From: Escherichia coli
Lineage (GTDB): Bacteria; Pseudomonadota; Gammaproteobacteria; Enterobacterales; Enterobacteriaceae
Direction: 5' to 3' (one strand)
Length of the DNA: 64,000 nt
Assembly (NCBI RefSeq): GCF_003334405.1
Contig: NZ_QOWM01000001.1
Part shown: in pieces, positions 21,501-33,500 of the stretch
Layout of the letters: every line of letters starts with the position of its first letter
How positions within the stretch are numbered: the stretch's first letter is position 1
Position numbers: made by a program

Positions 21501-24500
21501 TTATCCGCCTGTTTACTATCCCGGAAAGCACCTGGCCGCTGGTCACCATGGTGGTGATTATGGGGCCAATCTCGTTCTGGGGGAACGTTGTCCCTCGTGC
21601 CTTCGAACGTATTGGCGGTACGGTGTTGGGGTCGATTTTAGGTCTTATCGCTCTGCAACTGGAGTTAATTTCGTTACCGCTGATGTTAGTCTGGTGCGCG
21701 GCGGCGATGTTTCTTTGCGGTTGGCTGGCGCTGGGCAAGAAACCGTATCAAGGATTATTGATTGGGGTGACGCTGGCAATTGTTGTGGGTTCCCCGACAG
21801 GTGAAATTGATACGGCGTTATGGCGAAGCGGCGATGTGATCCTCGGCTCTTTACTGGCAATGTTGTTTACCGGTATCTGGCCACAACGGGCGTTCATCCA
21901 CTGGCGCATTCAACTGGCGAAAAGTCTGACCGAGTATAATCGGGTCTATCAATCTGCATTCTCACCGAACTTACTCGAACGCCCACGTCTGGAAAGCCAT
22001 CTACAAAAACTGCTGACCGATGCCGTGAAAATGCGTGGGCTGATTGCGCCCGCCAGCAAAGAAACCCGTATTCCCAAATCGATATATGAAGGTATCCAGA
22101 CCATTAACCGCAATCTGGTTTGTATGCTGGAGTTGCAAATCAATGCGTACTGGGCCACGCGCCCCAGCCATTTCGTGTTATTGAACGCGCAAAAACTTCG
22201 TGATACCCAGCACATGATGCAGCAAATACTGCTGAGCCTTGTTCATGCGCTGTACGAAGGTAATCCGCAGCCGGTTTTTGCCAATACGGAAAAATTGAAC
22301 GATGCTGTGGAAGAGCTGCGTCAGTTGCTCGATAACCACCATGACCTGAAGGTTGTGGAAACACCAATCTATGGTTATGTGTGGCTGAACATGGAAACGG
22401 CACATCAGCTTGAGTTGCTATCGAATCTGATTTGCCGGGCCTTGCGCAAATAATTCCTGAACTTCAGAATCATCTTGCTGCTGCTTCGATTCAGCAAGGA
22501 TAAAGGGTATGATAGTGAAAAGGGATAAAAGCATTGTCATCTGCGGCAGCTATGAGTAATGTTGGCCCTAACGAATAGCGGTTGCTTAAACGAATCCGAC
22601 TCTCACATTATCAGGGGTATAAAAATGGAAACTACCAAGCCTTCATTCCAGGACGTACTGGAATTTGTTCGTCTGTTCCGTCGTAAGAACAAACTGCAAC
22701 GTGAAATTCAGGACGTTGAGAAAAAGATCCGTGACAACCAGAAGCGCGTCCTGTTGCTGGACAACCTGAGCGATTACATCAAGCCAGGGATGAGCGTTGA
22801 AGCAATCCAGGGCATCATCGCCAGCATGAAAGGTGACTATGAAGATCGCGTTGACGATTACATCATCAAAAATGCCGAGCTCTCCAAAGAACGCCGCGAT
22901 ATCTCCAAAAAGCTGAAAGCTATGGGCGAAATGAAAAACGGCGAAGCGAAGTAATTCCCGTTTTATTCAATGAGGGTTGCCCGGCAACCTTCATTGCTCA
23001 TTGATTCTTATCTGTGTATCACCGTCATCATTCTCATCTGAGAACCAATCGAAATTAACAACAGCCTTCTTCTGTATGCAGCAAGGCAAAAAGTTCTGTA
23101 ACTCCATTGTTATTAACTGCACTGGTTACTAACACGTTGTGCGCTCCAGCTTCCCGTAACCAACTTTTCACCAAAGATATTTGTTCCATGCTGGCTAAAT
23201 CTGCTTTGGTTACTACTCCAATGACCGGGTGATTCATGGCCCGGTAGGGCGTTTTTACCTCTAATTCCTGCTTCAGCGCTGAGATTCCTGCTTGTTGCCG
23301 GAAAAGCAGGCACCTGCCGTCTGAACGGTATCGATCCGGAAGCGTATCTGCGCCATATTCTGAGCATACTGCCGGAATGGCCCTCCAACCGTGTTGACGA
23401 ACTCCTGCCATGGAACGTAGTTCTCACCAATAAATAAGCGTCAATACGGTGCTCCGTTGACGCTTACTTTAATCCGTTTTCTGAGCTTAGATTTTTCTGT
23501 TCCTACCCAGACCGTGGATTTGGAATTCATTTTTTGTCAGGTCAATGCTAATCGTTAAAACGGCCATAACGCACCTCCACTGGAAGGTTTATCAGTAATA
23601 TCCTACCGTTGCTTCATGGTCGGGGCGTCCATTCCATTATTATCGGTTTTCCTTTCTGTTTATAAATGAAAACGCCAGCTGTATTCAGGCTGGCGTCAGG
23701 GGAAATGAAGCCTGTTGAGTGAGATTCACCGGTTCTGGTGCAGAAGCTGCAGATGGCGCAGGGTAAGGACATCTTCTCTTGCCTGCTTAATACAGGACAA
23801 CAGTGCTGTTTCTGTGGTTAATGGCACTATACCCTGCATCACTGCATTGTCTTACAGCAACTGGTGAGGGCTGGCATAAGTTGCCGGTGTTTCGGTAGAG
23901 TCACGGTCATCCACCACGCGGAGTGAATAACCGTTTTCAGCGGCCTTATTAATCAGTTCAGTGATATTAACACCATCAATGTCAACGACAATGTGCCCCA
24001 TATCCAGCGCCTGTACGTTAACGCTGTCGGCTTCCAGTGTCATCATTTCGCCTCCGGATACTTACCCAGGGTAATGTTATTTACCGTTCTGTAATTGTCG
24101 CGGGTCATCAGGCCGGTCGCCCTGCGAGCCCGGAGGATATCGATGCTGTTTATTAACTGAGAGCGGGTACCGGGGTATACAGCAGGGAGGGGGGCTGCAG
24201 GAAGGCAACTGGAAGGATAGGAACTGAGCGGTTCAGTCGCGGAAATCAGTTGCAGAGCTGTAATGATATCTCCGGGAGTGCTGCGTTGGTAGGGGCATCC
24301 CGGGATAGAGAAATTTTAGCACTTTGCCCTGAATGATTGTAGACGTTCCGAGTACTCGTACCGGTCTGAGTTATTACAGTTAGATATTCACTTTTTCTCC
24401 CGCATACTTCACATCTGTCAACGACGGATGAAAAGTGGTTCTTCCGCAACCTGGGTGGAAGAAAATGGATGAAACTTTCTGGCGAACAAGGATCTAAGCT

Positions 24501-30500: not shown

Positions 30501-33500
30501 AGGCTATTGGACAGATCGGATACTTTTACAGAACCGAATTTACTGAGTCGTTTCAATATTTCATGATGGCGTTCAAATTTCATGCTTCACCTCACTTCAG
30601 TTACGTTAATATCTATCGATGTATATTGATGTGATAATCACCATAAAGTGGCGGGGAAAAGCAAAAAAAAGCAAAAATAGCCTGAGAAAAGGTAAGCGTT
30701 AATGGAGAATCATATTGATGCTTATTTATTGGTGAGAACTACGTTCCATGGCAGGAGTTCATCAATACGGTTGGAAGGTTATTCCGGCAGTACGCTCAGG
30801 ATATGGCGCAGATACGCTTCCGGATCAATGTCGTTCAGAAGGCAAGTGCCGATAAGCCCATACAACAGTGCACTGCGCTCGCCGCCGAAGAACATAAAGT
30901 TTTTATTTCCGAGACAGATGGCACAAAGGGCTTTTTCCGCGGCATTATGTCTGCCTCCGCCTGACCGTCAACACTGTAATAACAGAGTGCGCCCCACTGA
31001 TTCAGTACACAGCTGAACCATTCTCCCAGTCTGGATTTTTGGATAGCGTGGCATTTTTCTCCACCATGCATGCAGTGAGTCCAGTAACAGTTTGCTCTTC
31101 TTCTGCCTGACCACAAGATGTGCTGGACTGGTAAACGATGGGGATACCTGCTTACGCGAGAGCAATAAGTGGCTGGCCACAATTCTCGGTACAAAACTCT
31201 GCTGAATAGCAGCGATTTTCCCAGCGTGGTGCGTCGTTTGCATTTTACTGGTTCTAAGTTAACAATTATCTGTTCACTAATGACTACTCTAAAAACTTGT
31301 ATCAGGACTATCACTTATTTAAGTGATATTGGTTGTCTGGAGATTCAGGGGGCCAGTCTATAAACTTTTTACAAAAGGATGAATGCAGAAGGTTACTCTA
31401 ATGGCCAGAGTGATGACAATGATGGTCAGACGTTGACCTGCAGAAACTGCATTTTAATTGGTCTATAAAGTCTGCAAGAGGAATCAGGGTCAGATCAGTG
31501 AGTCTTATCGCGGCCCGAAGCTATGACTGAAAGAAGGCTGGATACAGAATTGCAACAATTTGGCAATGTCAGAACACAGAAGCTTTGCAAGCAGGTGAAA
31601 GGTTATGTCTAGCAAAAGGAGTATATCAGAATACATCTACTGATGTACAAAACACAACAATAGCTTCATGATATATAAATACGTGATGACGAGTGGTACT
31701 CCGCATGGTTATTTAACTTCTCAGCACCACTAATGATCCTGAGCAACTTCGTATTTGGGCCATTGCCATGGAGTAGAAAGCTGTGTCTGAGAATGCAGAA
31801 TTTGAGAAAAGAATTCGCTTTCTTGGAGAGCTTCTGAAAATGGCACGCTAACAACGTTTTGTTAAAAAATGTGAATCACTTGCCGGGGCTGCATTTTCTA
31901 TTCGAGGAGAATGTTGACGTAGATATTACAGAAATCTCAGCGCATCAGGATAAACTGCTACCTTAGGTCAACCACCAAAAGAAAATACAATACGTCCAGT
32001 TTGTATGCCTTTAATAACACATCTTCTAAATGTTGAAGAATTATCCCGCCTGCTGAAGAACGTTGCTCTGAGTGTGATAAACCTTTTTATTCTTGATGAT
32101 GTCAGCGAGAAGATGGAATATATCCCCGACTGGGTCGTGGTTACCCGGTTAAACATCTGGTGGCGCTAATAAATCTGGCAAGTCACATTCTGTTGAATGC
32201 TGTGACAGTGCCTTACCGAGAGAGCGAAATTGTGGTGTTCTAGTGCATAGTCGCCACCATTCCGGATAATTCTATTGCGTTGTTTTACAAGTTCTTTTAC
32301 AGCGCAGATCTGTCGCTGACGTTGAATCAATAGCCTGGATTTCAGAACACAATGCCCGTTTGCTGGTTGGTCCGGCAGTAGCATTAATTCATTATCTGAA
32401 TGAAATGTGTCAATCCACAGAAACCGCTGTCAATGACGCATTTTGTCGGACGTTAACACGAGAAAGTCTGGCTATTCCGTAATGCCATCTTATTTCGTAA
32501 TGGATTGAGAATGCTGGATTTTTAATTATATTACGCGCAGTATTAATCGCGTAAATGTTTTGCGGTCAGCAACGGTGGGGGATCCATTGTTCTGTTCAAT
32601 GAATACCATCATACATTTGAATCAGGAGTCGGTATGATGATTTTGGTGACGGGGGGCGCACGGAGCGGGAAGAGTCGCCACGCAGAGGCGCTTATTGGGG
32701 ACTCTTCACAGGTTCTGTATATCGCTACCTCGCAAATCCTTGATGATGAGATGGCTGCACGGATAGAACATCATCGGCAAGGCCGCCCGGAGCACTGGCG
32801 CACAGTGGAGCGCTGGCAACATCTTGATGAATTAATTCATGCAGACATTAACCCGAATGAGGTTGTGTTGCTGGAATGCGTTACCACAATGGTGACTAAT
32901 CTGTTGTTTGATTATGGCGGCGATAAAGACCCTGATGAATGGGATTATCAGGCGATGGAACAGGCGATTAATGCTGAGATTCAGTCGTTGATTGCTGCCT
33001 GCCAACGTTGCCCCGCAAAGGTTGTATTAGTGACTAACGAAGTGGGAATGGGGATTGTGCCGGAGAGTCGTCTGGCACGACATTTTCGTGATATTGCCGG
33101 GCGGGTAAATCAGCAGTTGGCCGCTGCGGCAAATGAAGTATGGCTGGTGGTTTCTGGTATTGGAGTAAAAATCAAATGAGTAAATTATTTTGGGCGATGC
33201 TCTCATTTATTACGCGTCTGCCTGTACCGCGTCGCTGGTCCCAGGGACTGGATTTCGAGCATTATTCTCGCGGTATTATTACTTTTCCTTTGATTGGATT
33301 ATTGCTTGGCGCGATTAGCGGGCTGGTCTTCATGGTGCTGCAGGCATGGTGTGGCGCACCACTGGCGGCACTGTTTAGCGTGCTTGTGCTGGTGCTGATG
33401 ACCGGGGGATTCCATCTGGACGGCCTCGCTGATACCTGTGATGGCGTATTTTCTGCACGTAGCCGCGATCGCATGTTGGAAATCATGCGTGATAGCCGTT

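What the first reader, a model, noticed from the sequence alone, without database searches (positions are those of the whole stretch)
23328..30850. Inverted ~110 bp IS66-derived repeats bracket the island
The plus-strand fragment ending at 23437 and the minus-strand pseudogene ending at 30722 share the IS66 transposase C-terminal coding sequence at roughly 90 percent nucleotide identity. Their 3' ends face each other across 7.3 kb, and the intervening DNA holds all the novel genes. Such inverted homologous ends can drive inversion and mark past IS66-mediated rearrangement.
Basis: seen in the sequence. Interest (0 to 1): 0.5.

Follow-up and report, generated by a model that had tools for sequence, protein, structure and literature searches.

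The report
Two unrelated dead IS66 end fragments
The inverted repeat is real, but it is only the leftover tail ends of two different dead IS66-family insertion sequences in a well-known variable spot of the E. coli chromosome, and no inversion between them appears in 5,426 complete genomes, so it is ordinary.

Summary
The repeat exists and is longer than reported: 23309-23470 versus 30689-30850, 162 nt, 88% identical (91% over the coding part). Each arm is the 3' end of an IS66-family transposase gene plus the element's right terminal repeat, and the termini (23467 and 30692) face each other across 7,224 bp.

The arms are not two copies of one element and do not jointly bracket an island. The left arm is the last 159 bp of an ISEc23-type element. 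It is identical to the K-12 pseudogene yoeD, and its junction is present in 3,148 of 5,426 complete E. coli genomes, K-12 among them, which lacks the cargo. The right arm is the last ~427 bp of a more diverged IS66 relative (83% to ISEc23, no closer intact parent found). It travels with the rikA four-gene cluster.

The interior is a mosaic: CP4-44-type remnants, an ISL3 pseudogene, and 4.5 kb homologous to the Citrobacter/Salmonella rikA-ggt region. The cargo is bounded by ISL3 and the right IS66 remnant. Its genes are not novel.

The predicted inversion junction occurs in 0 of 5,426 genomes. One related rearrangement was found: a deletion joined exactly at the left stub's terminus, explained by recombination with a newly inserted full ISEc23. 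Verdict: real, already annotated, low interest.

The parts
23309..23467 (+). Left arm: 159-bp right-end stub of an ISEc23-type IS66-family element. It holds the last 42 codons of tnpC, the stop at 23435-23437, and the terminal repeat ending ...GACGCTTAC. It equals K-12 pseudogene yoeD.
   Evidence: 96.2% to ISEc23 nt 2371-2529. 159/159 identical to K-12 and USMARC-51408. K-12 annotation yoeD b4642. 99.4% to plasmid IS66-family copies H109/H110.
30692..31118 (-). Right arm plus the rest of the right remnant: ~427 bp corresponding to ISEc23 nt 2085-2529. It comes from a diverged IS66-family element and is frameshifted with an internal stop. Its terminus at 30692 faces the rikA gene.
   Evidence: 83.4% to ISEc23. 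PGAP annotates it as 'IS66 family transposase, frameshifted, incomplete'. The same 5' truncation is seen in all chromosomal contexts and, within 7 nt, on plasmid pWP4-S18-ESBL-07_1. No closer parent in E. coli genomes or PLSDB.
23055..23308 (-). yoeF: truncated EutP/PduV-family gene fused by deletion to the 5'-truncated IS66 stub. The mechanical ORF 23055-23411 runs on, antisense, into the stub.
   Evidence: In strain 2-331 homology to the window stops exactly at 23308.
23468..24170 (-). CP4-44-type element remnants: DUF957 fragment, yeeW (23852-24046), and the 3' fragment of cbtA.
   Evidence: Collinear with K-12 CP4-44 up to 24173. Annotation. Deletion joint at 24166-24170 relative to strain F829.
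24415..26176 (+). ISL3-family pseudogene element with its own 43-nt terminal inverted repeats. Its 8-bp flanks do not match, so it joins unrelated DNA.
   Evidence: Repeat pair I2. PGAP: 'ISL3 family transposase, internal stop'. Flanks CTTCACAT vs TATGGCCT.
26177..26537 (+). ggt fragment (C-terminal part, frameshifted): a piece of the donor chromosome's neighbouring gene.
   Evidence: In Citrobacter sp. and S. enterica subsp. diarizonae, ggt lies convergent to the phosphotriesterase gene, and DNA homology to the window runs 26205-30678. Annotation.
26538..27572 (-). Phosphotriesterase-related protein (STM3550 homologue).
   Evidence: PMC13432705.
27575..28540 (-). DMT-family transporter (STM3549 homologue), a pseudogene here because of a stop at codon 203.
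   Evidence: It is intact in S65EC and H105.
28597..29355 (-). Glutamine-amidotransferase-like protein (STM3548 homologue).
   Evidence: PDB 2gk3, E = 7e-145 over the full length. 81-83% to the Citrobacter and Salmonella homologues.
29369..30583 (-). rikA: PfkB-family ribose kinase with an N-terminal DeoR-type region. Asp343 and Met90 are conserved.
   Evidence: PGAP names it rikA. PMC13432705.
30584..30691 (-). 108 bp of native rikA upstream DNA between the start codon and the IS66 terminus.
   Evidence: Donor homology extends to 30678. The IS terminus is at 30692.
31119..31359 (.). Fragment of a CP4-44-type element next to its GTPase (yeeP-like) gene, abutting the truncated 5' end of the right remnant.
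   Evidence: Window 31145-31304 is 95.6% identical to K-12 just upstream of yeeP. Homology to K-12 yoeH/yoeG resumes at 31359.

Best explanation
The 162-nt inverted repeat is a by-product of two independent, dead right-end fragments of two different IS66-family insertion sequences. They lie in the hypervariable tmaR(yeeX)-cobU interval of E. coli, the site of cryptic prophage CP4-44 in K-12.

The left stub is the last 159 bp of an ISEc23-type element. Its first ~2,370 bp were lost in a deletion that fused it to the truncated yoeF gene. It is old and widespread (K-12's yoeD) and has nothing to do with the cargo.

The right remnant is the last ~427 bp of a more diverged IS66 relative. It is physically linked to the rikA-STM3548-STM3549-STM3550 cluster wherever that cluster occurs in E. 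coli chromosomes, and on three plasmids. It marks one edge of a 4.5-kb piece homologous to the Citrobacter/Salmonella rikA-ggt region. The other edge is an ISL3 pseudogene inside ggt.

Neither relic can transpose. There is no tnpA, tnpB or intact tnpC and no left end, and both termini abut the interior, so the interior lies outside both elements.

The arms are poor recombination substrates for each other (88% identity, longest perfect run 41 nt), and no inversion is seen.

The only activity documented is passive. The left stub serves as a homology patch. In one lineage a full ISEc23 inserted in the same orientation inside the phosphotriesterase gene (strain cS100a). Recombination between stub and new copy then deleted everything in between (strain USMARC-51408).

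Shown: the sequences, joints, distributions and absence of the inverted form. Inferred: the order of events and that the deletion was homologous recombination.
For: Repeat geometry and termini. Different parents: left 96.2% vs right 83.4% to the same ISEc23 reference; left 99.4% to plasmid copies; no parent closer than ~84% for the right remnant in 5,426 E. coli genomes or 72,556 plasmids. Independence from the cargo: the left junction is in 3,148 of 5,426 genomes including K-12 and O157:H7, the right remnant in 1,693, and the whole block in 786. Cargo edges: homology to Citrobacter and Salmonella loci spans 26205-30678, with gene order rikA-GATase-DMT-PTE then a convergent ggt; the ISL3 repeats end at 26176. 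No inversion: J1 0/5,426; the J2 hits are explained as full ISEc23 copies next to DUF957'. Stub-mediated deletion: the USMARC-51408 joint is ...GACGCTTAC|ATTTCACC, exactly at the IS terminus; cS100a has a full ISEc23 with target duplication ATTTCACC at the same base and in the same orientation.
Against: The parent of the right remnant was not identified, so 'a different IS66-family member' rests on divergence rather than on a named element. The same geometry, IS66-family right ends facing inward on both sides of the rikA cluster, recurs in ST131-type chromosomes (full ISEc23 in ggt') and on E. albertii plasmid pEA17_1. That leaves room for some IS66-pair involvement in moving the cluster. Assemblies show only the majority orientation, so rare within-population inversions would be invisible. 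Only complete E. coli genomes were screened.
Confidence: 0.88

Rival explanations
1. The two arms are the decayed inner ends of a composite transposon (IS66 - cargo - IS66, elements inverted as in Tn5 or Tn10) that delivered the whole 7.2-kb interior.
For: The geometry fits: inverted arms with their right ends facing the cargo. A similar arrangement around rikA exists with a full ISEc23 in ST131-type genomes and on pEA17_1.
Against: The arms derive from different IS66-family members (96% vs 83% to ISEc23). The left stub is present in K-12 and, with its junction, in 3,148 genomes, against 786 that hold the whole block. Between the left stub and the cargo lie CP4-44-type remnants and an ISL3 element. 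Donor homology ends at ISL3, not at the left stub. Both outer ends are missing. The ST131 ISEc23 is a later simple insertion with its own 8-bp duplication.
Confidence: 0.04
2. The arms act as a recombination-driven inversion switch that flips the 7.2-kb block.
For: 162 nt of inverted homology with perfect runs of 41 and 26 nt, near or above the minimal length usually quoted for RecA-dependent recombination in E. coli (from general knowledge). The 159-bp stub does appear to have recombined with a full ISEc23 in direct orientation.
Against: 0 of 5,426 complete genomes carry junction J1, although at least 786 carry both arms in this arrangement. The J2 hits are not inversions. 12% divergence strongly depresses homologous recombination when mismatch repair is active (general knowledge). 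No site-specific recombinase gene lies in or next to the block.
Confidence: 0.03
3. The right remnant is retained next to rikA because it supplies a promoter or other regulatory sequence for the four-gene cluster.
For: The remnant lies on the same strand, 108 bp upstream of rikA. The linkage is conserved in every context seen, including plasmids. Only 108 bp of the native upstream region survives. Promoter-like matches occur on the minus strand at 30738-30709 and 30971-30944.
Against: The three promoter-like matches do not exceed the shuffle expectation of 2.1 +/- 1.3. Tight physical linkage alone explains co-inheritance. On pEA17_1 the remnant is cut down further, starting at about ISEc23 nt 2301, with the cluster still intact.
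Confidence: 0.1
4. The similarity is a chance or low-complexity match.
For: None.
Against: E = 2e-53. Both arms align independently to the same part of ISEc23 and to TnpC at protein level.
Confidence: 0

Closest known systems
ISEc23 (IS66 family; tnpA-tnpB-tnpC, 2,532 bp copy in strain SW071618)
   Same: Both arms align to its last 159 and ~445 nt, including the tnpC stop codon and the right terminal repeat ending ...CGCTTAC.
   Different: Only 6% (left) and 17% (right) of the element survive. There is no tnpA or tnpB and no left end. The right remnant is only 83% identical and is frameshifted, so it comes from another family member.
E. coli K-12 pseudogene yoeD (b4642) at the edge of cryptic prophage CP4-44
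   Same: The left arm is 159/159 identical to it and sits in the same place between yoeF and yeeW.
   Different: K-12 has flu, yeeR-T and cbeA/cbtA beyond yeeW, and has no rikA cluster or right remnant.
rikA-STM3548-STM3549-STM3550 locus of Salmonella Typhimurium (McCormick et al. 2026, PMC13432705)
   Same: Same four genes in the same order. RikA is 81% identical to the Citrobacter and S. enterica subsp. diarizonae homologues with Asp343 kept. ggt is the next gene.
   Different: Here the locus is a transplanted 4.5-kb piece inside a mobile-element graveyard, cut off by ISL3 in ggt and by an IS66 end 108 bp upstream of rikA. The transporter gene carries a stop codon.
Composite transposons with inverted flanking IS copies (Tn5, Tn10)
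   Same: Inverted IS-derived sequences on either side of non-IS genes.
   Different: The two flanks are not the same IS, both are truncated, the outer ends are missing, and one flank predates the cargo and is separated from it.

Membership tests
IS66-family insertion sequence (functional element) | Three genes tnpA, tnpB and tnpC (DDE transposase) | tested here: not met
   Only TnpC residues 496-537 (left) and ~401-537 with frameshifts and a stop (right) are encoded. There is no tnpA or tnpB anywhere in the window.
IS66-family insertion sequence (functional element) | Two terminal inverted repeats beginning GTAAGCG | tested here: not met
   Each relic keeps only the right end (GTAAGCGTCAACGG... 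and GTAAGCGTTAATGG... read inward). The left ends are absent.
IS66-family insertion sequence (functional element) | 8-bp target-site duplication | not testable with these tools
   It needs both ends of one element, and the left ends are deleted. Intact ISEc23 copies at this locus in other genomes do show 8-bp duplications (GCTTGAGC, ATTTCACC).
IS66-family-derived relic (pseudogene fragment) | Nucleotide and protein homology to the 3' end of an IS66-family element | tested here: met
   Left 96.2% and right 83.4% to ISEc23. tblastn E = 8e-23 and 3e-38.
Composite transposon | Two copies of the same IS flanking the cargo | tested here: not met
   The arms are 88% identical to each other, and 96% vs 83% to ISEc23.
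Composite transposon | Both flanks co-occur with, and directly abut, the cargo | tested here: not met
   The left stub occurs without the cargo in K-12, and its junction is in 3,148 genomes against 786 with the whole block. CP4-44-type remnants and ISL3 separate it from the cargo.
Invertible DNA segment | Both orientations found among related genomes | tested here: not met
   J1 0/5,426. The J2 matches are cross-hits to full ISEc23.
Invertible DNA segment | Dedicated site-specific recombinase nearby | tested here: not met
   No invertase or integrase ORF lies in 23-31 kb. The annotation lists only transposase pseudogenes.
rikA (STM3547-STM3550) gene cluster | Gene order rikA - GATase-like - DMT transporter - phosphotriesterase, with homology to the Salmonella/Citrobacter loci | tested here: met
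   81-97% protein identity across all four genes in the same order. 2gk3 match. RikA Asp343 is present.

The most novel reading that the evidence does not exclude
The old IS66 right-end relics make this locus a preferred landing zone for new IS66-family copies, and then act as homology anchors through which the island is progressively eroded. Across genomes there are at least six independent IS66-family insertions within about 4 kb: 113 bp and 135 bp from the stub's insertion point (C288, 2-331), in yoeF' ~200 bp from the stub (NR1441), in the same 8-bp ggt' target in both orientations (ST131-type vs SW071618), and in the phosphotriesterase gene (cS100a). One stub-by-full-copy deletion is also seen (USMARC-51408). 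If the clustering exceeds what ISEc23 abundance predicts, it would suggest end-directed targeting by IS66-family transposases.
Probability: 0.15. Interest if true: 0.35.

Novelty: already known. Interest (0 to 1): 0.1.

Why it matters
It matters little beyond careful annotation. It shows that an eye-catching 'inverted repeats bracket an island' pattern can arise from unrelated IS scars. It places the true edges of the transplanted rikA module at an ISL3 end and an IS66 end. It also gives one clean, stepwise example (cS100a to USMARC-51408) of how a 159-bp IS stub can mediate deletion once a full copy lands nearby. None of this changes what is known about IS66 elements or about the CP4-44 hotspot.

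Tried and rejected
(1) Inversion test. Synthetic junction J1 gave no genome with at least 80% cover. J2 gave five, which turned out to be full ISEc23 copies lying 113 bp from the stub's insertion point (C288) or inserted in yoeF' (NR1441), cross-matching the 84%-similar IS part of the query.

(2) Parent of the right remnant. Neither megablast against E. coli genomes nor megablast and blastn against PLSDB found anything closer than ~84% apart from the remnant itself.

(3) A mirror-image deletion in SW071618. I suspected a deletion starting at the right remnant's terminus. The breakpoints (window 27372 and 31360) are not at the IS end, so the idea was rejected.

(4) Target-duplication tests for the two relics are impossible because the left ends are gone. 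The ISL3 flanks do not match.

(5) Promoter scan of the right remnant: the matches do not exceed the shuffle expectation.

(6) tblastn extended the left arm to 23282, but DNA homology and the K-12 and F829 matches start at 23309, so the extension is treated as chance.

(7) The genome-contig scan with RikA returned only two non-E. coli loci. That was enough for the ggt test but too few for any phylogeny.
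Full report
**Observation.** The window is E. coli chromosome. It runs sbcB-dacD-sbmC-yeeA-tmaR(yeeX)-yoeF on the left and cobU-cobS-cobT-ldtA on the right. That places the finding in the interval that holds cryptic prophage CP4-44 in K-12. The inverted repeat is real: arms 23309-23470 and 30689-30850, 162 nt, 143 matches (88.3%), longest perfect runs 41 and 26 nt. The repeat is longer than reported because it continues past the stop codon into the IS66 terminal repeat. It is the strongest inverted match in the whole window (E = 2e-53).

**What the arms are.** I used an intact ISEc23 from strain SW071618 as reference; its ends are defined by an 8-bp target duplication. 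The left arm equals ISEc23 nt 2371-2529 at 96.2%, which is window 23309-23467. The right remnant equals nt 2085-2529 at 83.4%, which is window 30692-31118. Both end with the family's terminal ...CGCTTAC. The two termini face each other across 7,224 bp. There is no other IS66-family sequence in the window and no tnpA or tnpB. The right remnant carries frameshifts and an internal stop.

**The arms are not a pair.** The left stub is 159/159 identical to K-12's annotated pseudogene yoeD. It is 99.4% identical to IS66-family copies on present-day plasmids. The right remnant has no relative closer than about 84% among 5,426 complete E. coli genomes or 72,556 plasmids, apart from copies of the remnant itself. 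Their distributions differ. The native left junction (tmaR-yoeF-stub-DUF957'-yeeW) is in 3,148 of 5,426 genomes, including K-12 and O157:H7. The right remnant is in 1,693. The whole 10.2-kb block is in 786.

**What lies between the arms.** The interior is a mosaic of four parts.

- Window 23468-24170 is the end of a CP4-44-type element (DUF957', yeeW, cbtA'), collinear with K-12. A 3.7-kb deletion joint lies at 24166-24170 relative to strain F829.
- Window 24415-26176 is an ISL3 pseudogene with its own 43-nt inverted repeats and non-matching flanks.
- Window 26177-30691 is the actual cargo: a ggt fragment, then the phosphotriesterase-related, DMT (stop at codon 203), GATase-like and rikA genes.
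- Loci from Citrobacter sp. and S. enterica subsp. diarizonae carry rikA-GATase-DMT-PTE followed by a convergent ggt. Their DNA homology to the window spans 26205-30678.

The cargo is therefore homologous to this enterobacterial chromosome segment. It is bounded by ISL3 on one side and by the right IS66 terminus on the other, with only 108 bp of native rikA upstream DNA left.

The genes are not novel. The cluster is the one described for Salmonella STM3547-STM3550 with RikA as a ribose kinase (PMC13432705). The GATase-like protein matches PDB 2gk3 end to end. RikA keeps Asp343.

The right remnant stays attached to this cluster in every context seen. That includes the much larger islands of S65EC and H105, where the DMT gene is intact. 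It also includes three plasmids.

**Inversion test.** I built the two junctions that a crossover between the arms would create. J1 (tmaR-yoeF-stub joined to the rikA 5' region) is covered at 80% or more in 0 of 5,426 genomes. J2 is covered in five genomes. Inspection shows these carry a full ISEc23 next to DUF957'/yeeW, or the stub plus a new ISEc23, and the IS part of the query cross-matches at ~84%. From general knowledge, 12% divergence and short perfect runs make RecA-dependent exchange rare when mismatch repair is active. The two termini abut the interior, so the interior lies outside both elements and could not be moved by IS66 transposase acting on these two ends (inference from transposon geometry).

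**What the relics have done.** In USMARC-51408 the stub's last base is joined directly to window 26920 (...GACGCTTAC|ATTTCACC), which deletes 23468-26919. I predicted an intermediate with a full ISEc23 inserted there in the stub's orientation. Strain cS100a has exactly that, with target duplication ATTTCACC. The most economical reading is insertion followed by homologous recombination between the 159-bp stub and the new copy. The structures are shown; the order of events is inferred.

The locus is generally rich in IS66-family events:

- ISEc23 sits in the ggt' target GCTCAAGC (26354-26361) in one orientation in ST131-type genomes and in the other in SW071618.
- The homology of E. albertii plasmid pEA17_1 to the window ends at that same site, at what looks like an IS3-family end (recognised by eye, not tested).
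- ISEc23 and ISEc22 copies lie 113 bp and 135 bp from the stub's insertion point in C288 and 2-331.
- ISEc23 sits in yoeF' in NR1441.
- ISEc12 is inserted in the stub's terminal repeat in strain C9.

**Verdict.** It is wrong on the main points: the arms are not a matched pair, they do not bracket one island, the genes are not novel, and there is no inversion. Both relics are already annotated as transposase pseudogenes, one of them with a K-12 gene name. Novelty: already known. Interest: low.

Noticed in passing
window 26538-30583 (minus strand): The rikA-STM3548-STM3549-STM3550 homologous cluster. RikA keeps the catalytic Asp343 and Met90. The DMT transporter has an in-frame stop at codon 203 here but is intact in S65EC and H105, so the cluster is decaying in this lineage. 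The cluster's physiological substrate is still unknown according to PMC13432705.
   Followed up: partly
window 26177-26537: A ggt C-terminal fragment next to the phosphotriesterase gene. It reproduces the gene neighbourhood of Citrobacter and Salmonella, where ggt follows the cluster. This suggests the module was excised from such a chromosome.
   Followed up: yes
window 26354-26361 (GCTCAAGC): The same 8-bp target carries a full ISEc23 in one orientation in ST131-type genomes (H105) and in the opposite orientation in SW071618. The homology of the E. albertii plasmid pEA17_1 module ends at the same site, at what looks like an IS3-family end. It may be an insertion hot spot.
   Followed up: partly
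L004 12590-12630 (USMARC-51408) and L016 6628-9159 (cS100a); window 23467 | 26920: A 3.45-kb deletion joined exactly at the stub's IS terminus. A related genome carries the presumed intermediate: a full ISEc23 with target duplication ATTTCACC at the same base.
   Followed up: yes
window 24415-26176: An ISL3-family pseudogene that keeps both 43-nt terminal repeats (81% match). Its 8-bp flanks differ, so it sits at a junction between the CP4-44-type element and the ggt fragment rather than being a simple insertion.
   Followed up: partly
window 24166-24170 and 31359-31360: Two further deletion joints. About 3.7 kb (the rest of cbtA, cbeA, yeeT, yeeS, Gp2 and zinc-ribbon genes) is missing relative to F829. 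The yaiO/yaiP-ibrAB-TonB receptor block is missing relative to S65EC and H105.
   Followed up: partly
window 23055-23411 (minus strand): The ORF that K-12 annotates as protein YoeF starts inside the IS66 stub on the opposite strand. Its first ~34 codons are antisense IS66 sequence, so the annotated start is probably an artefact of the fusion.
   Followed up: no
window 36060-36163, 38468-38552, 40273-40379, 54669-54775: Repeats of 85-107 nt at 96-100% identity in mixed orientation. By position they are probably the tRNA-Asn gene copies, which are annotated just past ldtA and past cbl in the equivalent regions of other genomes.
   Followed up: no
L011 6595 (strain C9); L010 (strain 2-331); L012 (C288); L013 (NR1441): Several independent IS events within ~200 bp of the stub: ISEc12 inserted into the stub's terminal repeat at window 23454, ISEc22 135 bp away, a full ISEc23 113 bp away, and a full ISEc23 in yoeF'.
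   Followed up: partly
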